A DNA stretch of 63,998 nucleotides, taken from contig QPGO01000307.1 in assembly GCA_008632985.1 (NCBI GenBank), positions 1 to 63,998 on the forward strand, in the 5' to 3' direction. Every line of letters starts with the position of its first letter. Within the stretch, counting starts at the first letter, position 1. The position numbers and the translations under genes are program-made. Of this stretch, positions 666 through 48,894 are shown in pieces. Under the pieces are notes generated by a model. It saw only the letters and a list, made by a program, of their open reading frames with translations. It was not told the DNA's origin and did not search any database. The DNA comes from Psammoneis japonica. Lineage: Eukaryota.

Positions 666-2706
666 TGATGTATTCTTCTTAACAAGAAACCCGGTCTCAA
701 CCGTAGACGCTTACCGATTTCAGGAAAATCCTTTCTGGAGTCCTGTAAATGTAGCATAGTATAAGGTAGCGTAATCAATGGAACTATCGCGATTATTCAG
801 AACTTCTCTATCTATCTCTAGAATTTTTCTTCCATAAGCCCACCGGTGCTCGAATCTGCGAGTCAAAAAGCCGAAGCGCTGAGAGATTGCCCTGGGTGTT
901 GGTGTGTCCCTGCTGTTGGAGGCTCAAACTCTGACCTCTGGCCACAATGAGCGGGGCCAGAAAAGCAAGAGTGAATGCAACAGGGCAAAGAGAGGAGGTG
1001 CTTCACTGTGGCAGAGAGATGTGTTCCCGCCACACGTGAACATGCACATGAAAGAAAAAAAATGATTTTTGCATGGTTGCCAACTTGCGATGGAGGACAA
1101 AATGCCTCCCCACTTGTTTGCAATTTTTTGATGCGCCAACAAGACCTGCAACAGTGTGTGCCAAAATGAGCAGCTGCACTCCTTTCCCATTGTGTTGTGC
1201 ATCACAGCTTGAGAGTGAAGTGCCTGTGTCCTCTGTCCTTGTGAGTTGACAAATTTTGAACAAAAACTTCCAGTTGTGCAAACATTTGTCAATGGTGGCA
1301 ACAAGTTTGTGCTTTTTGCAAATTTGACAGAGCAATTTTTGTCCAGCACAAAGAGCTGATTTGAGCTGGTGGTGAAATGTTCATGCCAGGAGACATGCAG
1401 AAATGACTTCACAGTCTGAGTCATGTGCACAGAACTTGACACAGAATGATGCATCATGTTTCTTGCACAAGCCATCAGTTGTTGTGTGAATGAAATGTAA
1501 AATGGATGGTCTGTCTCAGGGGTGGGGGGATGCCCAAGGAAAGGCACATGTGTCAAAGGCAGAAGATGGAGATCATTCTTTGTCAGCCTTTTGGCAGCAG
1601 TGGGGCCAAAGAAGCTGCCATTTCAAAGACAGTGCAAGACTGCTTTCAGCACCTGGACAAGCACGACACACACATGTGAGCTCCTCCAAGCAAGACAGGG
1701 CCAGTGACTGCAGCACTCAAGAACAGGCTCAAGAGTGCACCCCAAATTGACTGAGTCCAAACCTCCAGTGAGCGTGCTTCAAAATGCAGAGACCTCCAAG
1801 AATGCCCAAAAAGCTGCACCAGCTCATGGCACCAAAACACTTTCTCAGAGAAAGAAGCAACAAGGTGGGCAGTGCTGCTGTGGACAGCAAGCAACTTTCA
1901 GCAGAGTCACGAGCAAGCTGTGCACATTGACTCAAACTCAGATTGATTGATGTCACACTCAAATTGGCTGCAGACATCCCAACAGAATCTTGAGTGCACA
2001 TGCTGGCATCACTTTCCTTGTCTCTCTTGGCACTCTGACAGCACAGATCCTGATTCTGCACTTTTGCCTTGCACCACCCTTGCTTGAGCTGCAGAAATCA
2101 AGCTCAATCAAGTTCTTGCTCCAGCTCCTCCATTGTTGGCTTTTTGCAATCAGCAGCACACTCTGCATGCTCCTGCTGAGCCAGATCAAGATCAAGGTCA
2201 AGCTCTTTTGCCTTGGCCCAGATTTTCACAAGGAACTTTGCATGATGTGAGCTGCTTTCTTCTTTTGCACTTAATTGTTTGCTGGAGCCACTTGGGTCAT
2301 GATGTCATCCTTGGAATGTTTGGAGCTGTCAAGCACCAAAGAATCTGTCAAGTCATGAAAAACTTGATCAAGAGTCTTTTGATGGTCTGGAACAGATGGC
2401 ATTGGCACAGGAATGGCTCAGAGATTTGCCACCCTGTTTGGACAGATTGGCTGGCTGAGCTCCTTGTGTGTGTGCAGCACTCCCTGGCTGGTTGCCATTT
2501 CCATTCTCCCCATGGAACAGAAGCAAAACATTCCTCAGCACATTTCCTTCTCCCTGGTTGAGTCAAAAAATTTGTCACCATTGTGTCCATGGCTGCTTGC
2601 TCCATTCTCATGCTTGGTTGCCCCCAAGAAGCCCCAGAAGCTGATGTCATCTATCCAAGCCATTGCAGGCACAAACAATGCTGTCCCCACAAGCTCTTTC
2701 AACTCA

Positions 2707-3096
2707 GACGTGTTCCAGGTCTAGGTGGGACCTCGCACTACTGAACTGTGACATCGATAGTTTTTTGAATCACGTCGTATGTCGCGCACGTAGATTTCTA
2801 CGTGATTTTTTCGATATTTTGTGTCATTTTACGGTACACTTATTGAGCGATCCGTCCAAAAACTTTTGACATTTATTGTTACAGCGCGATTCTATAATGT
2901 CTTAAGAATCGCGTAGGGCAGGTGCATTTGCAAAAACGTCGAGTGGTAAGAGGCATAATTGTACCACAAACTTGGCCGTTTATTTGATGTTGAAGATAAA
3001 TGTATCCATTAATTAAATTCTCGTACTACGGAGCTCGCACGTAGAATTCTACGGGCCCAATGTCACACGGAGTCCCACCTAGGGCTGGAACGCGTC
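2707..3096 (+). mobile_element. MITE, 390 bp, family 1 copy A (least mutated)
   Basis: TIRs GACG(T/C)GTTCCAGgtCTAGGTGGGAC ... GTCCCACCTAGggCTGGAACGCGTC. 4-bp TSD CTCA at 2703-2706 and 3097-3100. Colinear with 42690-43079. Confidence 0.92.
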
Positions 3097-4895
3097 CTCA
3101 GGCAAATCTTTGCTTGTTGTCTTTCTTGAGCACTGTGAGCCAAAGTGCCAGGCTTTGCAACAGCCACTCCATGTTTGACTGCACATGCTTGCTGAGCCAT
3201 GACCTGACATCTGTCACAGTCCACTCAACATTTTCATCATGCCACACAACAGATGGCCATTTGCCATCTTCTTCTGTGCAAACACATGAGCAAGTGTGTT
3301 GCAGATTTCTTTGTCAAGATCACTGGAACACTCCAAATCCACTTTTTCATCCCCCACAAGATTTGAGCACACTTGTGGGCATGCATCTTTGCAACACTTT
3401 CAAGGCACAGTGACGTGCAATCATCTGACAAAGCTCAGAGGATCAATCCTGCTCCAAATGGCCCACTTTGCTTTGAGTCCCACATCATGCCAAGGACATC
3501 CATTGGCCCCACATCTGACAGAAGAAAAAATGCAAACTGTTGTTCCTTCCCTTTTTGCTTGCTGAACAACAACAAAGTCTGCTGAAATGCCATGAGAAGA
3601 AATGCAACACTGGACTCAGCAAATTCAGCCAGCAACTGTGCCAGATCTCACAGGTCCAGCAAAATGTCTTGCACCTTCTCTGATTTGTGAAAGTGGCTGT
3701 TTGTGTTGTGTGCAAATGTCTCTGCTTTTTAACGCCACCTTTCATTTTTTGTGGCACCTTCACAGCTGCACTGATGAAGCAAAAGTGAAAGCAAAAACTC
3801 GCTGTTGTCAAGCTTTTGCAAGTTGGGCAAGATGACATTTAAAGTTTTTTTGTGCTGCAGGTGCGCTGCACATTTCCAAACCCTTTCGCATCAAATTTGC
3901 CTTTTGTCAGAGTGGCGCAACAAGCAAAAGAGTGAAAAGAGCTGTCTTTCCTGGTGTGTTGGAAGAGAGTTGTTCAGAGCTGATTGTCGCCAATGGTGGA
4001 AGCTCTGCAGGGAAAGCTGCGCGCCGGATTGTTCGCACTTGACATGACTGCCAACCCAACAAGCTCAGCAAAAATGGCACTCAAGGACTCTTCACTCTCT
4101 GTGTTTGCATTGCCAGTTGCACTCATGGGAACAATGGAGGAAGAAGAGTTGTGCCTCAGAGTCATCAATGAGCCACTTGGGCACACTGTTGTAAAAATGT
4201 TTGCACCTCATTGAGCGCTGGGGATTGTCAAAAAACAATTCAGCAAAGCAAATCAACTGATGAGCCATTTGGCAGAGGTTGTGCAGGTGCAGGTGCCTCA
4301 ATTTTGTTTGTGTGCTGTTTGCAGAAAAACTTTCTTGGGGTTGATGTTGCTCAGCAGCTTCTGTTGCACTTGCTCCTGTGACACACAGATGCTGTGAAGA
4401 GAAGCACATTTTTGCTTGCCACAAAGTCCAGTGAAACACTTGGCACAAAATGTGCGCACATGGGGGTTGGCACTGTTGTCCTCTGCATTGTCTGTTGCAG
4501 CTCAAAGCACATGCGCACCTCTTCTTTGATCTGGTTGAAACATCTTGAAGGCAGAAATCATGAAAACCCTGCGCAGCATGTTTTGTTGAACAGACAACTC
4601 TTGGTGAGGGCTGGCAGACAAGGTGACAAGAAATTGGCATGTGTCTCCATCACAATTTCCAGCACAAATGAGGAGGCAGGCAACTCCACGAGGCCAAACT
4701 CAGCAAAAAATGTCAAAGCCTCTCTTTGTGCAACAAGTCAAGTGATGAAATTGATTTGGCATGACACACTGCAAAGTTTTCCAAATGAAGCAGCAGGCTT
4801 GAAGTGACAGCAGCAAAAAAGAAGAAAAGCAAACAAAGAAAATGAAAACTCAAGCCGACAATTTCATGAAAATGGGCCATTTTCAAAAGAAGACA

Positions 4896-5155
4896 GGCCT
4901 GTCCCAGCTCCAGGTGATCCACTTTTCATCACACGAGAGGCCGATTTTCTGCGCAGTTTGGCGCAATTGGCTCTTTCAATTTTGATCGTTTCGAAAATCA
5001 AAAGGTGAGTGCACACCCGAAAACACGTGCAAAGTGCACACTCACCCTTTGATTTGGCAAAAAACGGATTTGGAAAAAGTCAATTGCGCCAAATGCACAA
5101 ATTGCCAAATGATGGGAATCGAAACCGAGCGGAGCACCTGGAGCTGGAACAGGCC
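4896..5155. mobile_element. MITE, 260 bp, family 2
   Basis: TIRs GGCCTGTCCCAGCTCCAGGTG ... CACCTGGAGCTGGAACAGGCC. 4-bp TSD GACA at 4892-4895 and 5156-5159. Confidence 0.88.
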
Positions 5156-5298
5156 GACAGACCTCGTCCAGCAAATGCCTCAGCTGCACACTGCAAACAA
5201 GAAACCAGTGTGTGAAAAGCCAGTTTTGGGCTGTTGAGTCCCAGCTGTCATGGGTCTTGTCACAAGGCCAGCAAATCAACATGAAAATTTCCCAATCT

Positions 5299-5690
5299 GA
5301 CGGGTTCCAGTCCCAGGTGGGACTTTTTGTGACACATTTGCCCCGCAGAATTCTGCGTGCGAGCTCTGCAGTTCGCACTGTGGTCAATGGATGTGCTCAT
5401 CTTTGACACAAAACAAGGCAGCCAAGTTTGCAGCACATGCATCTCTGTTCGCACTCGAAGTTTTGGGCAGTGCGCCTGCCCTGCGCCATTCTCAAGACAC
5501 TTGAGAATGGCGCAGAAGAAAAAAATGTAAAAAGTTGTTGAATGGATCGCCTGACAATTGCACCATAAAATGATGCAAAATTTTGCCAAAATCACATAGA
5601 AATGCACATGCGCGACATGTGATGCAATTTAAAAAACTGTCGATGCCACAGTTCTTCAGTGCGAGGTCCCACCTGGACCTGGAACGCATC
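5299..5690 (-). mobile_element. MITE, 392 bp, family 1 copy B (inverted, diverged subfamily)
   Basis: Ends GACGGGTTCCAGTCCCAGGTGGGAC ... GTCCCACCTGGACCTGGAACGCATC. 4-bp TSD ATCT at 5295-5298 and 5691-5694. Reverse complement aligns to 2707-3096. Confidence 0.9.
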
Positions 5691-12532: not shown

Positions 12533-13635
12533 TTTTTGTCTTTCTTCTTTCACATGATTTGGGCCAAATCCCCACTCAAGGAGTTGAGTCTCGGACACCA
12601 CACTTCTTTTAAAAGGATGCCAAGGGAGGGCACTGGGGGGTGGCAGCTGCGACTAACAAGATCTTGCATTTCGAGGAACCCCAAGCCACTCTGGCCACAG
12701 TTTTCTTGCACCAATTTCTCTGAGCATGCCACTTTGAGAAATTCAAAAGCTCAAATTGGCAACATGTCCAGGAGTGTGTGCGCGAGAGTTGCCGCTGCTG
12801 ATCTCCCACATCATGTGACTGGCCCTCAGCAACAAACCAGGACTGTCATCACAACAAAACACAAGAAGAAGCCATGCTCACAATGTGAAAGCAGGAGTGG
12901 AGCAGGTTGAATTGATGTGCCAAAAGTGGGAGCCAATTTTTTCAGCAATGTGGGATGTCCAAATGATGGTCAGAAAAGTGACAGGCCAATGTTGCACTTT
13001 TTGTTTCGCATGTCAGGGAAGGTGCTTGCAGAGTGGTCCACAGAAGGAGACTTCTGTCTGAAACCTTGTTGTTTTGAAGAGCTCAACTTGGCATTGAAAT
13101 TCTGCAACATGATGGTTTTGCATGGCAAAACTTGTGTTCCCTGCTGTGGCTCCTGGCTGTGGCCACAGCTTTGTTTTTCTGCTTTTGTCTTTGTTGTCAC
13201 TTTTGCATGAACACTTGTCTCGTGACTGTTGCCTGTTCTTTTTTCATTGCTGAAGAGCCCATGAGAATGTGTGGCAAGAAGCAACTTGTCACAATGACAT
13301 GATCTCAGTCCGCTGTCAAGTGGCTCACTGATTTGATCCCCTTTTGCTCTTGACTCAAAGCCTCCAACTTTGGAGCAAACACCTGGAAAATTCATGTGTG
13401 CACAGCCAACTCCAACTCTGAAACTGGTCCCAGCAAGGCTCCACTCACATCCATGGTGGCCTCCTCACTTCTCCCCAGCTTTTTCAATGTTGTGACTTCA
13501 GCACAGAGAACACTGGATTTGTCAACTTTTGGTGGTTTTGCTGCTTCAACACCAGTGGAAGAGAAATCGAGATTTCAGGCTCGCATCAGGAACGTGTGAG
13601 CCGATGCCGTTTCGGAAGCCCACTCTCATGGAATG
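12533..13635. other. TpA-depleted degenerate domain B (probable pseudogene/repeat relic)
   Basis: Only two TA seen in ~1.1 kb, CpG reduced, no intact recognisable ORF. Confidence 0.8.
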
Positions 13636-14023
13636 TAGTCAAGACTGTTTGTCAAGATTGGTGGAAGCGAAAGATCGAATTCAAGCCAGCAAGTGACACG
13701 TGAACGTGTTCAGATAAGATGGAAGCTGCTTCGGAAGTTGGTTTGGTTGCTTCAGCACCAGCGGAAGAGAAATTGACATTTTAGGCTCGCGTCAGGAACG
13801 TGTAAGCCGATGCCATTTCGGACACCAACTATCAATAAAATAAAAAATGACAAACCAGCCAATGCATTGTAATTTTCAGATTATCTTTTTGTTTTGCGTG
13901 TGCTAGAACTCTTGTTGACATCGTGGTAGCCCTTCTGCCGCTTGTGCTGCGAGAACTTTTCCTCCGAGGCCTACTCTAGCTAGAGATAATAGAGGCAGTA
14001 TTTCTAGTTTGAACAAAATACAG

Positions 14024-19183: not shown

Positions 19184-19802
19184 CATGGCTACGTTGATCA
19201 TCGCAACTTATTGGGTCTAGTGATTGAAGATTGTCCTGTGGCACTTTCACGATTTTCAAGCGATTCCCAAAGTGAAGTCAGCTCGGACTAGCTACATGCA
19301 TTTGTTTGGACAGTCTCTTACTTGTAAGGCAACTTTCCGATTGTTGAATCCGGGAAACACCAGCTACAGTACTTCAATGGGTCAGATGACTAACAAGAGA
19401 TTGTCAGTGCTCCGACATGTCCCATAACATCGGTACGCGGAGCACCGCTCCTTCACAGAAACGACAAAGTGCAACTCACAGTAACTCTCACACAGCACCA
19501 CCTGTTAAACGAAATTTATAAGACCTCGTTTGGTCAGAACATTGACCTGTGTATGTGTTCGTCGCGGGGTTGCATGTAGGATGGCACCATCATAATTGGC
19601 CCGTGGACCCTTAGTTTGCGAATCAGTCCGAAGGGGTGCCTTCCTCTGCTCCTGCACGATGTGTTTGTTGTTTGGATGTTAAATCGACAGGAGTCTGGTG
19701 CTTGATGCGACATCCGTTAGTGAAGATTCCCCGAAACGTCTGTGTGAGCACATGTAGTTTTGTCACGGCTTTCCAAGGGACTCAAGCCTTCAGCCACATT
19801 TA

Positions 19803-21657
19803 TTCTTCCCCACCCACCCACCCACCAGGCTGAGATGGTGCCTTGGGTGCAAGGGTGTCATGGACAGAGGCCTTTGTTGCCCACCTCTTTCATTGTGTCC
19901 TTCTTGACCGATCGGGGCAAAACTCTGTTGCTCTTTTGCATTTTGCCACTGGGTCGTTTTCACTGGTGAGAATGAAGCAGCAGCACAGGGCACCCATGAT
20001 TGGAGAAGTTGTGTGCAGTGCATGGGACCCCGCCAACTTCCATTTGCACCCTCCTGGGCACCTCTGATTTTGACAGACTGGCGCAATCAAGATTTTCTGA
20101 GGAGGAGTGTGGAGCATTTTCTTTGCTGACAGCCAAAGCCACAGCTTGGGGGGTGGCAGGCCACAGCAAAAGGCAACCCCACCATGCCACAACCACACAC
20201 TGAGATCCCAAATGTCCAAATCAGAGAGGAGGCACACTTGTGTCACAGTTTTTTTGCTGTGTGTGTGCTCCCTTGCATGTTGTGCAATGCTTGACAATCA
20301 CTCATGCTGTGCAATGGCTGACCTGTCATGCAACTGACTGCCAGCAGCAGCCATTGAACAAAACAAGAAGCAGTGGTGCACAAGAGCAGAAGATGAGCAC
20401 CAGAGGCAAAGGTTTTGTGGAGATTTCAAAAAAACACTGAGAAAGAGCCCACATGGAGCAAAAGGAAGCAGTGAGAAAATTTGACCCAAAAAGTCAGTGA
20501 TGAAGCCATCAAGCAAAGAAAGGGAAGGGCAGGGGGCAATGACAAAGGCAAAAAGGAGGGTTGGCAAATGACGGCAAAACTGTGATTTGATGTTTGGCCA
20601 ACTTTGGTGGTGGTGCAGCCTGTGAAAAATTGGCAACTGTGTGTGCATCAGCTCCAAGAAGCAAATTGTGCCAATTGAAAGTGCCAAGAGCAAACAAAAA
20701 TGTCTGCACAGTCAAAAACAAAGAAAGGTGTGTGTGCAAAAACAGACTGGCAACAAACTGTGCAAGGATGCCAACCATCAGTCACTGAGAGCAAACTGCA
20801 ATTTAATGAAAAGATCAAAATTGCATGGACAGCACCAAATTTTTGTTGTGTGGGCAAAGTTGGCCCTCTGTTGACAGACAGCTGATTGTCAAGAAATGAT
20901 GAGAGATGTTTGGGGCGATGCGTGTGAGCAAATCGAGCAGTCAGAGACCTCATGGAATGTTGGGGGGCACTGATGTTGACCAGTTGCACACAGACGTGCA
21001 TGGCAAAAAACTGCTGCACATGAGTGTGTGCAGCACCTGATTTGGACATTTGGGGAGATGACCTTGAGATGTTGGAGGGAAAAACAGGGCCCCGCAGACT
21101 GTGCGCAGCTGTGGAGGCATTTTTCACTGCTGCTGCTGCTGTGCTGCTTGCATCTCTGCCTGCTTGCAAGCCAAAAGAGGGCTGGCACAGATGGGCTGCA
21201 AGCAACAATGACACATGCATGGCTCGCTGCCACTCACAGAGTTTGCACACCGGCGCTGTCCTCTCTCAACGCCCCAGGCTTGGATGCACGGCCAACTTTT
21301 GGAGCTCGCTGGAAGATGGTGTGCTGGTTGTGACTTGGAAAACAAAGTGTTGCATGCCATGGTGGTCACATGTCAGTGAGCTGTCTCAAAGCCACTTCAA
21401 AGTGGGTGTTTCCCTGTCGAGGTGTCACGGCCCTTGGCTGGCACTGACGAAAGACTCGCGCGCCACGCACACACCCCTTTCCCACCTGCTTGACCCAAAC
21501 CATCTCAACCATTGGATCGAAATGGTCACAGAGATCAATGCTGCTCAACTCAATGATGGTTCAGTTGAGAGAAACACACGCAGCCAGCCGCCGGCAGCCA
21601 CCGTGTTGGGAAACCATGTGGAATGAATCATTTTTTTCTTTTTTCCATCAGTGTGCT
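19803..21657. other. TpA-depleted degenerate domain C
   Basis: Essentially one TA (20804, in AATTTAAT) in ~1.85 kb. TG/CA-rich. Confidence 0.85.
20207..21054. mobile_element. Non-autonomous TIR element, ~850 bp, decayed
   Basis: CCCAAATGTCCAAATCAG ... CTGATTTGGACATTTGGG with imperfect inverted similarity extending ~65 bp. Flanked by GAGAT at 20202-20206 and 21055-21059. Confidence 0.78.
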
Positions 21658-21893
21658 GTACAGCACCTGGCTGGTGCGGTAAGTCAGTCACGGAATGAAA
21701 TCAGTCATTTGCAGTTTTGTCGATTTTACACATTTCACCGTATTACAAAGTCGCGGGTCATTTTTACGTGATCAACTTCCAGTCGCTTCCAGTCCCGCTT
21801 GAAACTCAACACCAAAAAATGCTTCCATCTTGTTGCACCTTTGAGGAGGTTTTCACCTCAGTTTCGAGCTTTGACTGTTCCTTATTCATCAGT

Positions 21894-23000
21894 ATGATGG
21901 TCTTCCTCATCTTGCTCTTCTCCTCCCTTCTGGCCTCGATAGCATCTGCCCAGCAGAAGTACATTCTACAAGCTGAGGATGCTCCACACGAAGCTACTTG
22001 GCTCAGTTGGCCTCATCACTATACTTACGGGAAACGCTATCGAAAAGAGATTGAGAAGACTTGGCTTCAAATGACTAAAGCCCTCGCGCAGAGCGAAAAA
22101 GTCTATATTGTGGCATACAAACGTCGAGAGCAACGTCGCATCACGAAACGACTAAGAAACAGCAAAATTCCACTTGAGAGCATCAATTTTGTGATACAAC
22201 CTACCGATGATACATGGATTCGTGACAACGGCCCAATGTTTGTTGCGAATGCAGAAACAGGTGCGCCGGCCATTATTGATTGGGGATTCAATGGATGGGG
22301 AGGGGATGCACCATATAGCACGGACGACAAGCTTCCGGAGGGCGTGTCGAAGCAACTGAACGGATTAGCTTATGAGAATCTCAACTCTGTTGTTATGGAA
22401 GGAGGGGCAATTGAAGTGGATGGTAAGGGTACAGTCTTGGCCACCAAGAGCTCCGTCTTGAAGAATGGGCGAAATTCGAGGCTTTCCAACTCTCAAGTGG
22501 AAGAAGCCATGATGAAGTACTTGGGTATTGAGAAGTTCATTTGGCTGGATGGAAGGTTTGGCGGTAAAGGGGATATCACGGACATGCACATTGATGGATT
22601 TGCCCGATTTGGGACGGTCGACACAATCGTCACCATGTCGCCTGCTGACCTCCGATACTGGCAACTATCCGAGTCGGATATCGACAAGCTAATGTCAGCC
22701 AGCGACAAAAACAACAAGCAATACAAGTTTGTCTACCTCCCCTTGACAAAGAGCAATGTCAAGACCACCTATGGGAAGAGCTTGGGCTACAAGGGTTCGT
22801 ATGTCAACTTTTATGTGGCCAACACGGTGGTCCTCATGCCAAGCTATAATGATCCTAACGACGGCATCGCACAGAGGCAACTGAAAGCTCTCTATCCAAA
22901 CAAGCGTGTGGTGAAAATTGACGTGCGCAATCTCTACAAAAATGGCGGCATGGTTCATTGCGTAACGATGCAGCAGCCCAAGGATCCTGGAATGCAATAA
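21894..23000 (+). CDS. aguA: Agmatine deiminase (PAD_porph family) with N-terminal signal peptide
   Basis: Motifs HEATWLSWP, DDTWIRDNGP, WGFNGWG, MEGGAI, TDMHIDG, SYVNFY and GGMVHCVTMQQP (catalytic Cys). Intronless, with hydrophobic leader MMVFLILLFSSLLASIASA. Confidence 0.92.
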   Translation: MMVFLILLFSSLLASIASAQQKYILQAEDAPHEATWLSWPHHYTYGKRYRKEIEKTWLQMTKALAQSEKVYIVAYKRREQRRITKRLRNSKIPLESINFVIQPTDDTWIRDNGPMFVANAETGAPAIIDWGFNGWGGDAPYSTDDKLPEGVSKQLNGLAYENLNSVVMEGGAIEVDGKGTVLATKSSVLKNGRNSRLSNSQVEEAMMKYLGIEKFIWLDGRFGGKGDITDMHIDGFARFGTVDTIVTMSPADLRYWQLSESDIDKLMSASDKNNKQYKFVYLPLTKSNVKTTYGKSLGYKGSYVNFYVANTVVLMPSYNDPNDGIAQRQLKALYPNKRVVKIDVRNLYKNGGMVHCVTMQQPKDPGMQ

Positions 23001-26575: not shown

Positions 26576-27629
26576 TTTAGGTGGCGCGCACATGCCCCTT
26601 TTCGCAGAAAAAATAATTTTTTAATGCTTTATTGAACACCGTACATATTTATTAAAATTGATCACATCAATGGCTTATAAGTAAAATAAACAGAATAAAC
26701 TCGAACAAAAACAAACAGCCAAACCGGCCATGGCTTTCAGTGACCATGACGGCCCACTTTTTTCAGCCTTATGGAAAATTGAATGTCATGACCAGGATCT
26801 CCGTATTTGATATAGTCTGTGTCATCAACAACAATAGTGAAAATGCTTGTTGAAGGCTGCAGCGCGGCACAATAATGCCAAATCTGTCAGCAACAACAAT
26901 TGAGCCTCTATTCACTCACAATTTGCCTCTAAGGACCATTTCTTTTCTATTACCATGTGTGTTTCCTCAATATATTCGACTGATTCAAGTGTATCAATCG
27001 TTTATGCCTTTTAAACCGTGAAAAATGGTCCGAAGTCGACGCCATTGCGTGGGCTGAGCTACGTACACTTCTTCTCACGTCGTCCTAAACTTATTAATCA
27101 ACGAATGCTTTATTCGATCCGTTGAGTGTAACTCGTATACGCGTATGAAAACAAAATATTAATTATGCTATGTTAAAGACTTAATTTATATATATTAATA
27201 ATATTTTATATGTTTCTTGTTACATTAAGGCATATATAAATCGCTCATCGGAAAATTCGAGCTCCCAACTTACGGTACAATTTAGCGACTAATAACTGAG
27301 TCCATCAACAGTTTCGAATACATGGGTACACGCACAAGACAATTCTGTATGTACCCATAACAACACATTTGTAAATTGTTATGTTTTTACTATCGAAAAT
27401 GGTGCCGCAAGTGTGGACCGCGCGTTTCATGCAAAAAGGGTCATTTTTTCGCGCGTGAGTGCACCCAAGTCTGGAACAAGTCACCAGCTCGATTCCGAGG
27501 TGACGGTGACCAGATGCAAAAAATCGACACTGCTCATCGAATGGAGTGCGCTGTGCAACGAAACCCCGGCCAGTCGCACGCTGCTTTGCACCTCCGACAA
27601 GAACAGCATGAGACATGCAGTTTGCCTTG

Positions 27630-28100
27630 ATCTGGAGGTGGGCCACCACGCACACCATCAGAGTTGCAAGCACGTTTGAAAACTCTGGTGGCCGACTCCA
27701 CCGCAGCAGCAGCAGCAAGAAAGCAAACGGCAAAAATCCAAACGATGTCCCAATCGGCAAAGGTCCTGGGAAAGGTTTTGATCCACCGCATCTTGACAGT
27801 GCTCAGCCTCATGCTGACAGATTTGGCTCATTCCCACGTCCCAGACTTTCCCACCTGCACATTCCTTGAAGCCAACTGATCCACCATGAGTGCCATTGTT
27901 GCAACCCACAAAGACATCCTCCGAGAGATTGACACCTTTTGAGGTCTTGCTGATGCCACCATGAGAAATAAAAAAAGGGCTGTCAGACAGATCAGGGTGT
28001 CCACAATGTGAGCGGGTGCAGAGAGGTCTTGTCAAAACCCTTTGTCCCAGCATGACGAAAGAAACCAATGCCATGAAGTGTGGCAGAGAAAACTCAAAAT
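27630..28100 (-). pseudogene. 1,3-beta-glucan (callose) synthase, GT48 catalytic-region fragment
   Basis: SFVMLGQRVLTRPL..RSHCGHPD...GGISKTSKGVNLSEDVFVGCNN...DVGMSQI...RLDFCRLLS matches the GT48 consensus (GQRVL, HYGHPD, RGGISKASK, NLSEDIFAG, GRDVG). Continues after a frameshift as FSNVLATLMVCVVAHL. Confidence 0.88.
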
Positions 28101-31100
28101 CCCTGCATGCATGTGATCCACGAACACCACGGCTGGCATCATCAACATGTTCAACAAAGTAAAACATCAGGCCATTTTGCGGGGAAGAATCTGCTTGTGG
28201 ACCGAGAAACAAGCAGAACACGTGCCGGGCTGCTAACGTCTGTTTTGGAAACACACCGAACACGCACCGCGACGTCCAGAGCTCGTCTCAAACACGCCAA
28301 AGGTGTCCCACACATCAGCCCCTTTTATCCACATTTATTGTGAAACGATTGAGGCACAGGTCAAGGGATGAGAGGAGGGAAACAACAACAAACTCGACGA
28401 AACACACCGGAATGACGACAACAGCAGCAGACTCACACACCGAAGGAATCGAAATCGATGTTCTTGCGTGGAGTGGCACTTGTAAAAATGGCGCCAACAC
28501 GTCATGGCACTGCAGACAAATGCCGACAACATCCCGAGTGACTCACCTTGTGAAAAACGGGGACAACGATGGTGGACGCGACGCAAATTCGCCATGGTGG
28601 CTGCGCAAATTCTGCGTGGAATTTCTCGTTTTTGTGCCAGCGACCAAAAAAATCGCACAGTGCGATTTTTTTAAGCTGTGCCAGTTGGCCTGGTGCAGCG
28701 ACATGTTGCGATCTGTGGGAGGTCTTCTCTGTCTTCTTCCGTGCCACTTGCAGACCTCCCAGTTGGGAGTGGCATCGTCTTGCCACATGTGTGTCCCGGG
28801 TCTTGCACAGATGCCCCATCGCGGTTGATCCACAGCATCCGTCAATCATTGCATGCATTGATCACATGACTCACATCACAACATTGCAAACTGCACAATG
28901 GTCGATTGTTGTCAGTGTGACATTGGCATCTTTCAACAACATTTGCACAGCAGCACCACCAAAGTGCTCCCATCATCAAGGATGTCATGTTCCAGGAGCT
29001 CCAGGTGGGACCTGGCAAAGCAGCGCCTGCTCTCAGCACACAGAAGAGAGTTGGCTGTGTGTCATCTGGTCAGGGGGGCATCTCTTGAAGTTGTGTGGAT
29101 GGTGTGAAGAAACAAGAGTGTGCACTCAATGAGCGCTGGAAACTGTCTGGGAAGCTTGGAGAGTGTTGAGATCTTGGCTCCTCAAGGTGACGAAGCAGGC
29201 ATCGAAGTGGATGCTGGAGTCTGGGCATCAACTTTGAAGGGGGCAGTGTCAACAAGGCCCCAGCTGTCGCACCTCAGTTGGGTTCCTGGGCAGAAATGGA
29301 GGTGGTTGGCACCAACAGCGATGATGACAGCATCTTTTTTGGCATTGAAAGCTGTGGCCATTGCTTTCAAAAGTGACTGTTGTGTCTCAGACATTGCTCA
29401 CGGCTTCTCTGGGCATGGGCTTGGAGAAAGCAGCTTGATCTGTGAAGGGTCCAATGCGTTTCAGGTCCACGGCAGTGTTTGCCTGTGGCTTGATGACCTT
29501 GTCAATGAGCCAATGGTGCAAAATTGTGCTGACATTGTTGTGGAGACAGGGTGGTGTAAATCCATCTGGTGTGGCTGATGTGCCCAGGATGGCATCAGAG
29601 TGCATGCCATTCGGGCAAGCATGTGCATCTTTGCATGCAGAGTTGAGGCTGTGTTCAAAAAACGATGACATCTTTGTCTGAAATCAACAGCTTTGGTTGA
29701 CTTGTTGGTCATGGCAGTGTGGTGCAAAAAATGCTGTGCAGAGCTCTGGTGTGTGCTCTGCAATGCGCTGTTGGCTGGAGCCACAGACAGTGGGAAAATT
29801 GGCAAGACGGAGGCAGTCATGGTGTTTTCTCTCAATGAAAAAAGGAGCTCTGCAGCTGGCACAAACTTTGCTTTGCACCGGCACTTCAATGACAGAGGAA
29901 TGGCATGGTGATGAACAGACAGAGGGTCTGTCAGCACAATTCAATGCACACTGGGACAAAGATGATGACACAGTGCTGGTCAGAAAGAAAGCGAGTGGAA
30001 GCAAGAGAGGTCTGATGAGACCTTCTGCAATCTGTGTGTCCTTGTGTCTGTCCATTGGGTGTGTGACTGATGTGCATCACTGGCACACACTGCTCATGAC
30101 TCAGTGGGCTGACAGGCAGGAAGATGATGGCACAAAAGAAAAGCTTTTTTTCGACTTTGTTCTTGTTGACAGCTGGCCACTGTGCCTTTTCCATGAGTTT
30201 GTGTTTCAGTTTCCTGCCTGGTGTCTTTTCTTTGAGAAGGTGACCAGCAAGCACTTTTGGTCTGCCTGAGTTTGCTCTCGCTGCATTCTCAGATCATGTG
30301 CTTTTGTGTCACATCACCACTCAAACACAAACTGCAAGGGCAAGCACCCAGCTGGTTTGTGGCTTGCCTGTCACCCAAGTCAAGTGCTGGCAACATGGCA
30401 ACAAAACACCAAGAAGCCTTGAAAAGGTCTGAAAACAAGTTGTCCAGGGATGAAGTGCAGTGTGATTGCATCAAATCTTTGGGCAGTGCTGCTGGTTTCT
30501 GAAGGGTGAAAGAGATTGGCATTTTGTCAATGATTGAAGATGATGACTCTGCAGGTTTGCACGATGAACTCAAGGCCAGTTTGCAACAGCCCTTGTTGAA
30601 AGGTCAACCTCAATCTGCGTTTTGAGCAATCGCAGATCATTGTCACATTCTTTGCCAGTGCAGTGCCATGTTGTTGGACTCTTGAGGGACAATGACAAGC
30701 TGTTGAACTTGTGGCTGACATTGGAAGATCCAACAACACCATGTTTGTTGTGCCATCAAGGGCAAGTCCTCTTGCTGTCTGGTGTGCTGGTGTTTTTCTT
30801 CTTTTCTGTTGCTTTGCTCCAATGGTGTGCTTTCTTTTCCTTGAACACTTGTTGGCAATTGCAGGCAACAATGCATTGCAGCTCTCAAGACTCTCTCCCT
30901 GCTTGCCATTCTGGCAGCCCCAACTCAGGCATGTCCAGCTTCATTTCACATTTTTGGTTCTTGTGAATTGGAGGAAAGCGAATGTCTCCAGTTTTTGGAT
31001 TGACCCCCTTTTGCCACAGGCAAAAAAGAAACTGCCGCGTGGGAGCTGGGGGGAGTGGCTGCATGTAGAAGCTCACCTTCAAGGTCAATTTCTGTCACAA

Positions 31101-31349
31101 AAAGGCCTGTGTGGACTCAGTCACTTGACGGACACCAACTTCAATGAACATTGGCTTTTTGACTTGATGGAGGGCAAGGAATTGAGTGTTGCCCAGGACA
31201 ATGGCGCCCCAGTCAACTCCAACAGAAGCAGGCTTCATTGACAGCATCATGATGGGCTCAATGTGGACAAGATTCCTTGCAATCAAAAAGATGCTGTGAG
31301 CTTTTCCTGGAACCTTTTAACAAGGATGCCAAATTGCTTGCAGCTGGTG

Positions 31350-31960
31350 ATCCGGGACTCTGGACCATCAACAATTTTCCTCAGTGAGGAAGAGGTGGAC
31401 AGGATGACAGAGTTGATGCACGGGGTTGGTTGTGATCAAGGCATGTTTGGTCCATGTGCTGTCAGTGACCGAATCCCCAGATCATGTTCATTGTGAGAGC
31501 AACACCAAGGTGTGCTTCAAGATCTCTCTGGAGAGCATGATTTGTGAAGGTCCTTGCCAGTTCTCCACTCACAAACACGAGCCAGACCCCCAAAGATGCA
31601 ACCTCAGTGGCCGAAATCAGGGCTGGGTTCAAGAGCTTGTGGTGAACTGAAGTTGAACCTGAAGAACACCTGCAATTCCAGCATGCTTTGAAAGGCAGTC
31701 CTCCTGCATCTGCCTTCACAGCAATGACAACCATGCCATCTTGCTGGTGTGCTCTGTCGCTCAGATGGTGGCACATTGCTCTTCTTTCCAAATCTTGACA
31801 TTTTGATCACCCCCAAGAAAGGGACAGCGGCAACATTCCTCAGTTTGTGCAAGGATGGAAGTTGCAACACCTGGCCAACCATGCAGATCAGGCCCATCCG
31901 GAAAAGTGCTGGAGACTGCACCATGGCACTTTTTTCTGCAAAGAAGAAGTCCTTGGAAGT
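31350..31960 (+). pseudogene. Prolyl 4-hydroxylase-like 2OG-Fe(II) oxygenase relic
   Basis: Frameshifted fragments in the expected order: INNF/LSEEEVDRMTEL, QELVVN, ILLVC, DGG..FFPNLDILITPKKGTAATF.SL.KDG. Confidence 0.55.
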
Positions 31961-33965
31961 GTGGTCTTGTTGGAGGTGGAAGTGCAGGAGAAAGCACAAA
32001 GATCACTGTGATTTGGCTCAGCATCACCGGCTACATTGCCTGCAACAGCTGCATCACTGCCCGAGCTGTTTTTTGGCAGAACACCATGGTCAAGAAAAGG
32101 CTGCTGCCATGAAAACAATGGGGTTGGCATGCCCAATTCATGTGGGCAATTGTTTGGCATGTTGACTCTTGGAGAACAGGAGATCTTGAAATGGCTTGCA
32201 AAACTTTGAGCCCAATGACAAAACATGTCCACCAGAACCAAAGCATGAAGAAACAATGAGATTTTGATGTGGAGAGGGGTCACAGTGGGCCCAGCATCTG
32301 CTCAGAGAAGTTGAGATGATGGGGGGTGGACAAGGTTTGTTCGAAAGAACACAGCTGGACAAAATTTGCAATTTCAACCTTTGGTCTCATGCTTTGTGTT
32401 GGAAATTGGTGCTGTGTTGAAAGCAGGCAGGAAATGCACACTGGCTACCTTCATTTGAGCAATGTGTCAAATGGCATTTTTCTGTCTTCAGGTCCAACAA
32501 TGTTGCCAAAAGCTGACATGCTCACAACATGTGCAAGCATGAGAAGATGGAAAGCAGCAAGGCTCAGCAAGCCATTTTTCCAGCTTGAGTCACAGCCACC
32601 TTGGCAGCATCTCTGCCACAGTGACCTTGGCCAAGGGCTCCAAGCTCCAAAGTGACAGCAACACGGAGCAAGATCCAGCTCCACAAGAATCAGTGTTGAC
32701 AACAAGCACACATGCACTTGCTGCACAAAATGCTTTGCTGGTCAACAAAGCCAAGCTTCAGACTGCCATCCAGGAGCTCAAGTTTGCAGCTGCAGATCTT
32801 GAGCCAACCAGCACTGTGCTGGTGTGTTGGAAAAAATGAGGGCATTGTCAAAGTGCCAGCTGCAGCAAAAAACAAAATTGCCATGCTCCAGATTGTTGTC
32901 TTGCAGCAGCTGGCAAGGAGAACTTGGAATTTTGCATTGTGCACACAAGTCACTTTCTGAAGTGAGTGCTTGCATTGACTGCCATGGCCAGTCTCTTTCC
33001 AGAAAGAACAAAAAGTGCTCTGGAGCAAAATGAGAAAAAAGGAAGCTTGCTTCTCAAGTTGTGAACCTTGCTGAGTTGCAACTTGACAGCGCCACCACCT
33101 TGACCAATCAAAGCCAAGAGCAGGAGATTGGCAAAACAAAGAGCAACAGATCTGACACCTCAATGATGCTCTGGCACAAGAAGTGCAAGTTTCAAATCAA
33201 ACTCTGAGCATTGATCTCAGTCAGTTGTGGCTGCACAAAGTGCAGCTGCCAGTCATGTCAATTGGTTGAATGAGCAGATTTGAGACTTCAGAGAGGAGAA
33301 AAGGAGCTGCAGGTGTGTGTGCAATGGGGGGTGCTGTTCTTTAGATTGAGTCATGGGGTGGTCTTTTCTAATCACAGTTCACCAGCATTGATGGTTTGCT
33401 GCACCGCAATCCCATGGATGCATGAAGTGAGGTGTGCAGCACATTGCCACACTTTCATCTTTCCAACACCGTCACATCCGTCGCACATGTGTTTGGGTGT
33501 TGATGGGAGCTGATGTGCGGACGTGTGCACAACACATGCATGACTTTGCATGTTTGAGCACCATCATTCAGACAGCATTGTTGCCCTTTTTGTTGTGCAC
33601 AAACAGGGCACATTTTCAAAGAATGTTGCAAACTTTTTGATGGCATTGTCTGGTGTCATTCTGCACAACAAGTGTGGCACAGCAGCACACTGTCTTGATG
33701 CCAATTGGTGATCAGGGAATCACATCCTGGCATCAAACACAATCTCAACCAACCAGCCATGATGAATCCAGCAATGGCAGCATTGGAAATCACACCCAGT
33801 GGGTGCAGACAACTCCATGCTGTGACACCCAGTGCCAGGGGAGATTATTCAAGAAATCTGGACGAAACCTCTGCCTCCAAGCGCGCGTTGCCTGATCGTA
33901 CCGTACGCACTGTAGATGCCCTCTTTTCGACTTCTTCAGTTCCCGGAACTATGACGTGACACGCA

Positions 33966-41200: not shown

Positions 41201-42236
41201 GCTTCAAAACAAAAAGACACCGCAACCTCCATTCTGCCCCTTCATCATAAAAAAGAGCATTTTGCTGCAAAGCTTGCACGCAGCATTCTGCAGGCCCAAT
41301 GTCACAGGGAGTCCCAACCAGGATTAAAGCCCATCAGCCGCACGAATTTTTCAACATGCCCTGACAGCAATCACAATTTTGCTGAAGTTTTGAGCTCTTC
41401 CAAAAAATTGCACCACTCATCACTGGGAATTTGTCAATTTTTTAAGAAGTCCCCACGAACCCCAATGTCCTCAATGGCCATTCTCAGAATGCAAACAACA
41501 TGTGTGTGCCAAATGAACCATGCTGATTTGTTCTCTGAGGGACACACTTTCAATTGCCGACCAGCCGACCCGCCGACCCGCCAACCCACCGACTCACTGA
41601 CCTGCCGACCCACTGACCCACTGACCCACCGACCCACCAACACACTGACACACCAACACACTGATTGACTGACTGACTGACACAAAAAAGTCTGCAATCA
41701 CCAACCACCGAGTGGTCAATCACAGTTAATTTGTTGATTTTTTAGGAAGTCCCCACGAACCCCAATGTCCTCAATGATCGTTCTCAGAATGCAAACAACA
41801 TGTGTGTGCCAAACAAACCATGCTGATCCGTTCTCTGAGGGACACACTTTCAATTGCCGATCGGCCACCTGACCGACCCACCAACCCGCCCACCTGCCAA
41901 CCCGCCAACCCGCCCACCTGCCGACCCGCCGACCCGCCAACCCACCGACCCACCGACCCGCCGACCCACCAACAGACTGACACACACCAACACACCAACA
42001 CACTGATTGACTGACTGACTGACACAAAAAAGTCTGCAATCACCAACCACCGAGTGGTCAATCACAGTTAATTTGTTGATTTTTTAGGAAGTCCCCACGA
42101 ACCCCAATGTCCTCAATGATCGTTCTCAGAATGCAAACAACATGTGTGTGCCAAACAAACCATGCTGATCCGTTCTCTGAGGGACACACTTTCAATTGCC
42201 GATCGGCCACCTGACCGACCCACCAACCCGCCGACC

Positions 42237-42326
42237 NNNNNNNNNNNNNNNNNNNNNNNNNNNNNNNNNNNNNNNNNNNNNNNNNNNNNNNNNNNNNNNN
42301 NNNNNNNNNNNNNNNNNNNNNNNNNN
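42237..42326. other. Assembly gap (N run)
   Basis: Run of n. Confidence 1.
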
Positions 42327-47569: not shown

Positions 47570-48705
47570 GACAGCACTTTCTGCTGTCAGCAAAGAGTGT
47601 GAGCTGGCTGGACTGCCCAACCCCACACTTCACAGTTCCTTGGCAGTCACTCCAAATCAAGTGCCAGCTTGGGACCAACTGCACCTGGCTGGTTGCAATG
47701 CAAAGACAGCTGTGACAGCAATTTGTGACAACAAGAGAGTGTGAGCTGGCTGGGCTCCTGACCCCAGCACAGCCACTTCACAGCCCCTCAGCACTGGCTC
47801 CCAATCAAATGCCAACTTGGTGCCAACAGCCACAAAGCCATTGTTGCAGATCTCTGCACCTGGCCCCTCACACAACATGTGTGGCCTTTGCAAAATGGGC
47901 CCCTGGCCAACTGCAGACTCCTCATGGCTTGCAACAAGCCACCACAACACAGAGCATTGTGGGGTGAATGCAGCACAGCTTGAGCAAGCAAGCCATGCTG
48001 GAAGCACTGAGAGCTGGCTGCTGTCCTGGAGCTCCATTCAAAGCTGAGCTGGGCTGCTTGGCTCCTTGGTGGGTGGCACATGCTTGCTTGGCATCACATT
48101 GTTGCCAAGCAGAGCCACATGGCATGTGCCCACCATTTGTGCCTGCAACAGTGATCCCTGGCCACAAAAAAGCCAACAAAAAGTTGAGCCTGCTTTTGTG
48201 GTTGAAGGGTGAAGAAATTGTGAGTGAGGTTGGGTTCAAGAGTTTGTTGGCAATGCCAAGTGGGCAGCCAAAGAGAGGCACCAAAAATGACTGTGTGAAG
48301 TGTCTCTCACTCATTTCTCAAGAGGAGCTTGTGCTCATGATGCGGGGTCTGAAGCAAGCACCAGTCAAGAGGACAACAATTCTTTCCCTCTCTGTTCCAC
48401 CCAAAACACAGCCTTTGAGTCAATGTGGTGCTCCTTCAACAATTGATGCACACACTGGGAGGAGCAGCTGTGGAGCCAGGGCAGCAGGCCTGGCAGGGCT
48501 TGGCTCACAACCAAGCTGGGCTTCTCAGCTTGGCAGCACACACTCAGAGTCACATTGTTGCCCTCCTGCAGCTGCAATGTGCCCCACTCTTTGCACCTGC
48601 AGCAACCACCCTGGACCAAAAGAAGCCAGTGCAACTCTGGCCCTGGTTGCATGGTCAAATTGTGTGTGTGTTCAATTGTCGGAATCCCCTCCTTTTTTCC
48701 CTTTT
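47570..48705. other. TpA- and CpG-depleted degenerate domain F
   Basis: No TA seen and almost no CG in ~1.1 kb. Internal ~140-bp duplication starting GAGTGTGAGCTGGCTGG. Confidence 0.85.
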
Positions 48706-48894
48706 CCTTTAAACCGGCCACGAATATGAAAAAATTGCCGAAAGAGGTGCGAGGAGACGAAGACGCCACAGCACCACCGCAACTAACTACTGTAACATCG
48801 GAACTTGCGTTAGAGCTTATAAACAGGCTTATGCTACCGGTATAGATTGATTGAACTTTCGGATAGATAGATTCATAACAGACTCCTACATAAA

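What the first reader, a model, noticed from the sequence alone, without database searches (positions are those of the whole stretch)
27630..28100. Glucan-synthase relic with Tyr converted to Cys or His: protein-level evidence for direction
Seen versus the GT48 consensus as I recall it: HYGHPD reads HCGHPD, GYNN reads GCNN, KEY reads KEC, QIY reads QIC, D.YR reads DLCR, YYGG reads CCGG, and VYVVVYL reads VCVVAHL (TAY to TGY/CAY). Arg and Thr changes (RGG to HGG, GRD to VWD, SRD to SQD, VTL to VML) fit CpG decay. The HYGHPD Tyr is highly conserved from fungi to plants, so TA is ancestral. It also shows that duplicated host-gene fragments, not only TEs, are targeted.
Basis: partly seen in the sequence, partly recalled or inferred. 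Interest (0 to 1): 0.85.

Follow-up and report, generated by a model that had tools for sequence, protein, structure and literature searches.

The report
Diatom gene relic stripped of TA
A broken copy of a diatom's own glucan-synthase gene has had almost every TA step rewritten to TG or CA, which shows the direction of a block-wise mutation process so far reported only in one unrelated alga.

Summary
Window 27485-28089 (minus strand) is a frameshifted, internally deleted GT48 glucan-synthase fragment (Pfam PF02364, E 3.8e-26). Against 113 diatom-type homologs, 0 of 11 conserved Tyr survive (8 Cys, 1 His, 1 Gln, 1 Phe; p=8e-7). A-to-G changes hit 16 of 21 ancestral A's that follow T, against 3 of 67 elsewhere (p=1e-10).

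Contigs from a sequencing run of the same organism hold undeleted, parent-like copies. These carry TA at 25 of the 40 best-supported places where they differ from the window, and the window has CA or TG there. TA is therefore ancestral.

The relic sits in a 6.45-kb block (27392-33846) with 14 TA where 263 are expected. Six further such blocks lie in the window. In each block measured, the missing TA plus missing CG equals the excess TG+CA.

The host is a diatom. The same TpA-to-TpG/CpA signature was shown experimentally only in Bigelowiella natans (bioRxiv 2026), and my searches found no diatom report.

The claim that host-gene duplicates are targeted independently of repeats is not shown: the fragment is multi-copy and lies among high-copy sequence. 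The enzyme is unknown; adenine deamination is inferred.

The parts
27687..28089 (-). Relic piece 1. It corresponds to about residues 1120-1255 of homolog P0001 and holds HCGHPD, GCNN, KEC, QIC, DLCR and CCGG. It has a 2-codon gap, a 1-codon gap and a (TGC)5 run.
27641..27682 (-). Relic piece 2, shifted by one frame from piece 1. It reads FSNVLATLMVCVVA opposite FSNVLTILTVYVV of the homologs.
27485..27640 (-). Relic piece 3, about residues 1341-1392 of P0001. It is joined directly to piece 2, so about 70 codons are deleted between them. Homology to other copies ends at 27482-27484.
   Evidence: Loose ends at 27482/27484 appear in 13+5 (X1) and 2 (X2) contigs.
28090..28328 (-). Upstream extension. 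It is collinear at DNA level with a parent-like contig, but I found no convincing protein homology. A 2-base difference at 28089 breaks the frame.
   Evidence: record 10 covers 27636-28328 with 43 other letters and 10 gap letters; 'left out 2' at 28089. (best local scores 20-29).
27392..28785 (.). Unit A: TA-free but CpG-normal, and covered by many diverged contigs. TA 7 against 56.9 expected; CG 74 against 75.5 expected.
28786..33846 (.). Unit B: TA-free and CpG-poor, with low contig depth in the part laid (28786-29000). TA 7 against 206 expected; CG 49 against 274; TG+CA 1172 against 743. No Pfam match in six frames.
836..2652 (.). Another TA-free, CpG-poor block: TA 2 against 74 expected, CG 13 against 98.
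3081..5528 (.). Another TA-free, CpG-poor block: TA 3 against 100 expected, CG 44 against 133.
12655..13636 (.). Another TA-free block: TA 0 against 40 expected, CG 13 against 53.
19802..21659 (.). Another TA-free block: TA 1 against 76 expected, CG 30 against 101.
47630..48710 (.). Another TA-free block next to an assembly gap: TA 0 against 44 expected, CG 2 against 59.

Best explanation
The window comes from a diatom nuclear genome. The feature is a dead, rearranged fragment of about 200 codons of the organism's own GT48 beta-1,3-glucan (callose/chrysolaminarin-type) synthase gene, and it exists in several diverged copies. In this copy nearly every TpA dinucleotide has been converted to TpG or CpA by A:T-to-G:C transitions. 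Other sites have changed only a few percent. The conversion is confined to sharply bounded blocks: 27392-33846 here, and six more in the window. It is separable from CpG loss and faster than it. The relic part is TA-free yet still CpG-normal, whereas the other blocks have lost both.

Shown: the direction (TA ancestral), the TpA specificity, the block structure, and the balance between lost TA+CG and gained TG+CA.

Inferred: this is the same kind of locally targeted hypermutation measured in mutation-accumulation lines of Bigelowiella natans. It probably acts on silenced repeated or foreign DNA, and its chemistry is probably enzymatic deamination of adenine that follows T (A to inosine, read as G) on either DNA strand.
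For: Identity and host:
- Pfam and PDB matches to glucan synthase.
- The named relatives of the relic are diatoms.
- All named relatives of a neighbouring HOP/Hip-like ORF are diatoms.
- The window has long, intron-poor ORFs.

Direction and specificity:
- Tyr kept in 0 of 11 conserved columns; 8 became Cys, 1 His, 1 Gln, 1 Phe. Two less conserved Tyr columns are also Cys.
- The 49 mismatches at conserved columns split as 16 TA>TG, 2 TA>CA, 6 CpG transitions, 8 other transitions, 9 transversions, 4 multi-step and 4 ambiguous.
- A>G occurred at 16 of 21 A's after T against 3 of 67 after non-T (p=1e-10).

Same-organism contigs:
- Of the 40 best-supported differing places, 25 are window CA/TG against others TA.
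- 5 are window TG/CA against others CG, and 1 is window CG against others TG.
- 5 are other transitions and 4 are transversions.
- X2 contigs run on in frame into the deleted part. My hand translation of three loose ends fits the homolog consensus.

Blocks:
- 14 TA in 6455 bp against 263 expected.
- TA deficit plus CG deficit matches TG+CA excess in unit B (424 against 430) and in five other blocks: 157/140, 186/176, 80/66, 146/150 and 101/98.
- Copies of a 390-bp repeat differ mostly at TA against TG/CA.

Precedent: bioRxiv 10.64898/2026.01.13.699255. I read the outline, Results and Discussion and ran a term search of the main text. In the two hypermutable viral regions, 230 of 231 de novo mutations were A>G or T>C, and these all fell on TpA.
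Against: - No whole genome is held. The parent gene was seen only through a difference table, of which 300 rows were not shown, and through short loose ends. It was not seen as a full alignment.
- The runs come from one sample, which may be the source of the assembly, so they do not independently confirm the sequence itself.
- 21 of the 49 protein-level mismatches are transversions, other transitions or multi-step. Some of these may be the parent's own residues rather than decay.
- Nothing in the window identifies an enzyme. Because TpA is its own reverse complement, adenine deamination and thymine-based routes give the same product.
- The conversions around the relic are strand-biased, which a simple both-strand DNA process does not predict. 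On the + strand they split 21 CA to 4 TG; at the protein level, 16 TA>TG to 2 TA>CA.
- Not all repeats are hit. The high-depth left flank 27200-27391 is TA-rich.
Confidence: 0.85

Rival explanations
1. The phenomenon is the same but the chemistry differs. Thymine in TpA is enzymatically oxidised or otherwise modified (the 5-hydroxymethyl- or 5-formyl-uracil type, made by TET/JBP-like dioxygenases). The modified base mispairs with G and gives T-to-C, which is seen as TA>CA or, on the other strand, TA>TG.
For: The product is indistinguishable from adenine deamination because TpA is palindromic. From my own knowledge, not from any call: thymine-modifying dioxygenases exist in several protist lineages, and 5-formyluracil is known to mispair.
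Against: No such enzyme or modification was examined here. The B. natans preprint proposes an ADAT2-like adenine deaminase, on structure similarity alone. There is no direct evidence for either route.
Confidence: 0.15
2. RNA-level editing followed by reverse transcription. A transcript of the relic was hyper-edited A-to-I in a UA context and then copied back into DNA, so the changes sit mainly on one strand.
For: There is strand bias around the relic. 21 of the 25 polarised TA conversions are A>G on the relic's sense strand. At the protein level the split is 16 TA>TG to 2 TA>CA. CA exceeds TG on the + strand of 27392-28900, 170 to 131 (p=0.028).
Against: Conversions occur on both strands here (4 of 25). 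TG and CA are about equal in the other blocks. The TA-free state runs on across non-genic flanks and into unit B. The relic is collinear with a parent-like contig for 240 bp upstream of the last recognisable coding match. No reverse-transcriptase or other Pfam domain was found in the block (0 hits in 6 translations). The near-absolute need for a 5' T is stricter than what I recall for ADAR-type editing.
Confidence: 0.06
3. Reverse polarity. TG/CA is ancestral, and the other copies gained TA through a RIP-like C-to-T change at CpA.
For: Among three copies of the 390-bp repeat, two share TG/CA where one has TA. Naive parsimony would read that as a gain of TA.
Against: The Tyr codons are conserved in 113-120 diatom-type homologs and in yeast FKS1/GSC2. 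The TA-bearing contigs are the ones that keep an open, undeleted reading frame. The TA-bearing copies have ordinary TA density, not an excess.
Confidence: 0.01
4. Artefact or selection. Either a base modification at TpA causes systematic miscalls in the assembly, or selection removes TA, for example to avoid TA-targeting transposons.
For: Block-wise modified DNA could in principle mislead some base-callers (my own knowledge). The best holder run may be the source of the assembly itself.
Against: 60% of the sampled 31-letter words of 27392-29392 occur in contigs of a public run, and 83 laid contigs are 99% or more alike. The relic also has indels, a frame shift and a 70-codon deletion. Selection on dead, non-coding DNA cannot explain the replacement of conserved Tyr or the one-for-one balance.
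Confidence: 0.03

Closest known systems
TpA-specific hypermutation of integrated viral DNA in Bigelowiella natans (Mettrop et al., bioRxiv 10.64898/2026.01.13.699255; I read the outline, Results and Discussion and searched the main text for six terms)
   Same: Transitions occur only at TpA and give TpG or CpA. They are confined to blocks. TpA depletion goes with CpA+TpG enrichment. The affected sequences are mostly unannotatable.
   Different: The host here is a diatom (stramenopile), not a chlorarachniophyte (rhizarian). Conversion here is close to saturation (rho TA 0.00-0.18), whereas the NCLDV region there has rho 0.45. The target here includes a fragment of a host gene, which gives an internal proof of direction. 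Here it co-occurs with strong CpG loss in most blocks; the preprint's main text has 0 occurrences of 'CpG'. No de novo mutations were observed here.
Repeat-induced point mutation (RIP) of ascomycete fungi
   Same: Block-wise, dinucleotide-specific transition hypermutation that destroys repeated DNA, duplicated gene fragments included.
   Different: RIP is C-to-T, mainly at CpA, and creates TpA. Here TpA is destroyed and G+C content is not lowered (block GC 0.47-0.53 against a window background of about 0.47). Dependence on duplication was not shown here.
CpG decay through 5-methylcytosine deamination in methylated repeats
   Same: CG is depleted 2- to 30-fold in six of the seven block units measured, with a matching gain of TG/CA.
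   Different: It cannot remove TA. The relic unit has lost its TA but not its CG, so the two processes are distinct.
GT48 beta-1,3-glucan synthases (FKS1/GSC2, callose synthases; Pfam PF02364)
   Same: The relic aligns to the catalytic-region motifs: 70% identity at conserved columns and 61-63% to the best database hits.
   Different: It covers only about 200 of about 1,700 codons. It has a frame shift, a deletion of about 70 codons and the loss of every conserved Tyr, so it cannot encode an enzyme.

Membership tests
GT48 glucan synthase (PF02364) | Significant match to the family profile | tested here: met
   92 bits against a cut-off of 37.2, E 3.8e-26. Yeast FKS1/GSC2 chains match at E 1.6e-09.
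GT48 glucan synthase (PF02364) | Full-length open reading frame covering the 819-position domain | tested here: not met
   Only profile positions 365-480 and 592-648 are matched. There is a frame shift, a deletion of about 70 codons and small gaps. No other part of the gene is in the window.
GT48 glucan synthase (PF02364) | Conserved HYGHPD-region residues intact | tested here: not met
   Tyr is replaced by Cys at 28005; 120 of 120 homologs have Tyr. 0 of 11 conserved Tyr are kept.
TpA-to-TpG/CpA local hypermutation (B. natans type) | Substitutions are A>G or T>C and fall on TpA | tested here: met
   A>G at 16 of 21 A's after T against 3 of 67 after non-T. 25 of 40 contig differences are TA against CA/TG.
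TpA-to-TpG/CpA local hypermutation (B. natans type) | [quoted passage not shown] | tested here: met
   In the 2-kb windows from 28001 to 34000, rho TA is 0.01-0.09, rho TG 1.70-1.86 and rho CA 1.78-1.88.
TpA-to-TpG/CpA local hypermutation (B. natans type) | Elevated de novo mutation rate in the blocks, observed in real time | not testable with these tools
   It needs mutation-accumulation lines or time-separated resequencing. Only contigs of one sample were available.
TpA-to-TpG/CpA local hypermutation (B. natans type) | Targets are of viral or other foreign origin | tested here: inconclusive
   The only recognisable content is a host-type gene fragment. 0 Pfam matches in 6 + 30 six-frame translations of the other TA-free DNA.
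Fungal RIP | C-to-T at CpA producing a TpA excess and AT enrichment | tested here: not met
   The direction is the opposite. TA is nearly absent and GC is unchanged.
Fungal RIP | Acts on duplicated sequence only | tested here: inconclusive
   The relic is covered by many diverged contigs. But unit B shows low depth in the part laid, and a TA-rich, high-depth repeat lies next door.
5mC-driven CpG decay | CG depletion balanced by TG/CA gain | tested here: met
   Unit B has CG 49 against 274 expected. Five other blocks are depleted 2- to 30-fold. Not met in unit A (74 against 75.5).

The most novel reading that the evidence does not exclude
Diatoms have a fast, TpA-directed editing defence that marks silenced or duplicated DNA, fragments of their own genes included. 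It erases TpA well before methylation-driven CpG decay becomes visible. Its presence in both a stramenopile and a rhizarian would make it an old, SAR-wide counterpart of fungal RIP with the opposite chemistry (A:T to G:C).
Probability: 0.35. Interest if true: 0.85.

Novelty: new member of a known kind. Interest (0 to 1): 0.7.

Why it matters
A TpA-specific, locally targeted A:T-to-G:C hypermutation has been reported once, in a 2026 preprint on a chlorarachniophyte. That report gives no enzyme and no CpG analysis.

This window shows the same signature, driven to near completion, in a diatom. Diatoms are a different major lineage, ecologically dominant, and have genetically tractable members.

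The glucan-synthase relic gives three things that composition alone cannot:
- Proof of direction, from conserved Tyr codons and from parent-like copies in the same organism.
- A rough clock: TA conversion is about 88% complete while CpG is still intact and other sites differ by only a few percent.
- A case where the substrate is host-derived DNA.

If the signature is general, three consequences follow:
- It explains why such blocks defeat homology-based annotation.
- It shows that TA-free DNA produces long false ORFs, because only TGA stops remain.
- It opens the search for the responsible enzyme in organisms that can be transformed.

Tried and rejected
- First translation request: wrong coordinates, gave a stop-codon error. 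Corrected.
- First MAFFT alignment: it mis-registered two stretches, and for a while I scored KEY->KEC and VYVVVYL->VCVVAHL as unsupported. Relaxed tblastn and realignment to a 113-homolog consensus reversed this. For that consensus I dropped 7 of 120 homologs that did not span the 291-residue segment. I also dropped two codons beside a gap (27858, 27855) and the segment 28090-28131.
- Taxon search with the agmatine deiminase ORF: best hits were only 51-61% identical, and every hit that carries an organism name is bacterial. It was uninformative about the host.
- Pfam on six-frame read-through translations (stops as X): 0 matches in 6 translations of 28100-33801 at E<=0.1 and 0 in 30 translations of five other blocks at E<=0.05. 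Also 0 matches for ORFs of 110 aa or more inside the blocks. The kind of element remains unknown.
- Terminal inverted repeats around 27392-28785: none convincing.
- Protein homology upstream of 28089: local scores of only 20-29.
- Strand-coordinated patches of TG against CA: runs tests gave z -1.67 to +0.95 in the blocks, against -2.74 to +0.24 in normal DNA. Bin heterogeneity was no larger in the blocks. No support.
- Sequencing runs: no RNA holder listed. X3 and X4 laid nothing.
- Earlier notes of this scan: none for this genome or sequence. Three notes sharing the words concern phage genomes and do not bear on this.
- Literature: 0 papers hold TpA+TpG+CpA+diatom. Three further searches returned only the B. 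natans preprint for this signature, and a fifth listed no paper on it. Subscription journals are not covered, and bioRxiv supplements (its tables S2 and S6-S11) could not be read.

Full report
WHAT IS THERE. Translating the minus strand of 27300-28400 gives a stretch that Pfam assigns to Glucan_synthase PF02364. The main piece scores 92 bits against a cut-off of 37.2 (E 3.8e-26, profile positions 365-480). A second piece in another frame scores 32.9 bits at positions 592-648. The same stretch matches the solved yeast FKS1/GSC2 chains at E 1.6e-09, across the HYGHPD region.

tblastn with five full-length homologs finds only two pieces of the gene in the whole 64-kb window. A relaxed search adds a third, short piece between them. 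The anatomy on the minus strand is therefore:
- Piece 1, 28089-27687, about residues 1120-1255 of homolog P0001.
- A one-base frame shift.
- Piece 2, 27682-27641.
- Piece 3, 27640-27485, about residues 1341-1392, joined directly to piece 2. About 70 codons are missing at this join.

It is a dead fragment of roughly 200 codons from a gene of about 1,700 codons.

THE HOST. No genome is held for the window. Three lines point to a diatom.
- The best 120 relatives of the relic are 58-63% identical. Those with names are diatoms: Cylindrotheca, Chaetoceros, a Bacillariaceae MAG and Eucampia.
- A neighbouring intact HOP/Hip-like ORF (49647-50966, minus) has only diatoms among its named hits, at about 46-57% identity. 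They include Skeletonema, Fragilaria, Epithemia, Fistulifera, Nitzschia and Seminavis.
- The TA-normal parts of the window carry ordinary housekeeping genes in long, nearly uninterrupted ORFs. Examples are a 1,120-codon Brr2-type helicase piece, a class I tRNA synthetase and mitochondrial carriers.

This is not Bigelowiella natans, the organism of the one paper that describes this signature.

Every listed substitution is present. The pairwise matches show KEY and VYVVVYL in the closest homologs. The contig data show a Tyr codon at 27861 in other copies. The realignment therefore supersedes. The His in VCVVAHL lies on the deletion junction and is ambiguous, so it is not counted.

STATISTICS AGAINST HOMOLOGS. 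The consensus comes from 113 of 120 homologs that span the segment. 195 relic codons align, 162 fall in columns conserved at 90% or more, and 113 of those are identical.
- Tyr is kept in 0 of 11 conserved columns (8 Cys, 1 His, 1 Gln, 1 Phe). All other residues together are kept in 113 of 151 (Fisher p=8e-7).
- Two further Tyr-majority columns (77% and 59%) are also Cys.
- The 49 mismatches split as 16 TA>TG, 2 TA>CA, 6 CpG transitions, 8 other transitions, 9 transversions, 4 multi-step and 4 ambiguous.
- At first and second codon positions with a determinable ancestral base, A>G occurred at 16 of 21 A's preceded by T and 3 of 67 preceded by another base (p=1e-10).
- T>C occurred at 3 of 12 T's followed by A against 4 of 69 otherwise (p=0.06).
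- CpG transitions occurred at 6 of 36 sites against 3 of 116 (p=0.006).

SAME-ORGANISM COPIES. One public run (X1) holds 60% of the sampled words of 27392-29392, and a second run of the same sample (X2) holds a small share. I laid their contigs on 27200-29000 at 80% likeness. X1 laid 443 contigs: 83 at 99% or more, 111 at 95-99%, 123 at 90-95% and 126 under 90%. X2 laid 13, none above 95%. At single places up to 14 distinct contigs carry an alternative letter, so the region exists in several diverged copies.

I classified the 40 best-supported differing places; 300 more were not shown:
- 25 are window CA or TG where the others have TA.
- 5 are window TG/CA where the others have CG.
- 1 is window CG where the others have TG.
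- 5 are other transitions.
- 4 are transversions.

The 25 include the middle base of five Cys codons (28004, 27860, 27818, 27758, 27528), which read TAY in the other copies. They also include the first base of Val, Glu and Ala codons that read Ile, Lys and Thr, as in the homologs.

In X2 every covering contig has the alternative letter. Three X2 loose ends, reverse-complemented and translated by hand, read ITGGPLHFMF before piece 3, VVVLAIFDL after piece 2, and LANYMALQEI at the start of piece 1. They continue in frame into sequence that the relic has lost, and they fit the homolog consensus. These contigs therefore represent an undeleted, parent-like gene. One of them (record 10, 798 letters) covers 27636-28328 with 43 other letters and 10 gap letters. 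The relic is thus only about 6-8% diverged from it. Of the 26 listed differences in that span, 17 are of the TA type.

One caution applies: the runs are one sample, possibly the assembly's own source, and only a difference table was available.

THE SURROUNDINGS. TA is not merely rare in the relic. The last ordinary TA is at 27391, and from 27392 to 33846 there are 14 TA where 263 are expected from 39.7 kb of normal window sequence. Five further blocks have 0-3 TA each: 836-2652, 3081-5528, 12655-13636, 19802-21659 and 47630-48710. A tandem-repeat region at about 40.9-43.6 kb is partly depleted.

In every block measured, the deficit of TA plus the deficit of CG is recovered as excess TG+CA. For unit B the figures are 199+225=424 against 430. 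For the five other blocks they are 157/140, 186/176, 80/66, 146/150 and 101/98. That is what single transitions at both kinds of step would give, and G+C stays at 0.47-0.53.

The block holding the relic has two parts.
- Unit A (27392-28785) is TA-free but has normal CpG (74 against 75.5 expected). Many contigs cover it.
- Unit B (28786-33846) is TA-free and CpG-poor (49 against 274 expected). It shows low contig depth where it was laid.

TA loss and CpG loss are therefore separate processes. In a young copy, TA loss is about 88% complete (7 left of 57 expected) while CpG loss has barely begun.

Three copies of a 390-bp repeat with inverted ends (2707-3096, 42690-43079, 5299-5691) differ mainly at TA against TG/CA. 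This shows the same process at other loci. It also shows why parsimony among copies cannot give the direction: saturating conversion hits the same sites independently. This is why the protein relic is valuable.

MECHANISM. Shown: direction, TpA specificity, block confinement and independence from CpG decay.

Inferred: a locally targeted enzymatic process, like the one measured in B. natans mutation-accumulation lines. There, 230 of the 231 mutations in the two viral regions were A>G or T>C, these all fell on TpA, and the rate was about 1000-fold above background. The authors suggest an ADAT2-like adenine deaminase. From general knowledge, the tRNA adenosine deaminases act on an A that follows an invariant U, which fits the context. 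Thymine modification would give the same product, and nothing here separates the two.

One point is unexplained. Around the relic the conversions are strand-biased: 21 CA to 4 TG on the + strand, and 16 to 2 at the protein level. Other blocks show TG about equal to CA and no patchiness beyond that of normal DNA. An RNA-editing-plus-retrocopy route is therefore kept as a minor rival.

What selects a block is also unknown. A high-depth repeat directly left of the block (27200-27391) is TA-rich, so repetition alone is not sufficient.

COMPARISON AND NOVELTY. The signature meets the composition criteria and the mutation-spectrum criterion of the B. natans phenomenon. The real-time criterion cannot be tested here, and the foreign-origin criterion is open. 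It is the opposite of fungal RIP in chemistry and in its effect on TpA.

Searches for this signature in diatoms found nothing. They cover open-access PMC and bioRxiv only. I rate it a new member of a known kind, meaning a second and phylogenetically distant host. It adds three things: proof of direction from a host gene, near-saturation, and the temporal order relative to CpG decay.

The fragment is multi-copy and embedded in repeat-like DNA.

Noticed in passing
All TA-free blocks: 836-2652, 3081-5528, 12655-13636, 19802-21659, 27392-33846, 47630-48710: The number of missing TA plus missing CG equals the excess of TG+CA within about 10-20% in every block. For example, 424 against 430 in 28786-33846.
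   Followed up: yes
27392-28785 versus 28786-33846: CpG density drops about five-fold at roughly 28786-28900, the same place where summed contig depth falls from thousands to 41-121. Two different units appear to abut here, and both are TA-free.
   Followed up: partly
27200-27391: This sequence directly left of the block has high contig depth (1,450-3,980) but the highest TA density in the window (rho about 0.97). So not every repeated sequence is converted.
   Followed up: no
27392-28500: Strand bias of the conversions: 21 CA against 4 TG on the + strand among the polarised contig differences. Only the 40 best-supported of 340 rows were visible.
   Followed up: partly
27392-33846, the 15 residual TA listed: Residual TA often sit in T-run or A-run contexts (TTTA, TAAA). 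The base before the T is T in 6 of 15 residual sites against 1 of 21 converted sites. This hints at a wider sequence preference.
   Followed up: no
2707-3096, 42690-43079, 5299-5691 (reverse): A 390-bp repeat with inverted ends (MITE-like). The three copies are at different stages of TA conversion. The first and third form an inverted pair around the TA-free block 3081-5528.
   Followed up: partly
41400-43650: A tandemly repeated region with strong TG-over-CA skew (rho TG up to 3.1), partial TA depletion and an assembly gap.
   Followed up: no
21699-22997 (+): An intact agmatine deiminase ORF. Among its best database matches (51-61% identity), every hit that carries an organism name is bacterial (Lysobacter and others). 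It may be a gene of bacterial ancestry in the diatom.
   Followed up: no
TA-free blocks generally, e.g. 28100-33800: TAA and TAG are gone and only TGA stops remain, so all six frames carry long spurious ORFs of 110-250 codons. Gene finders could mistake them for genes.
   Followed up: partly
28646-28672: A perfect 13+13 palindrome, separated by one base, inside unit A.
   Followed up: no
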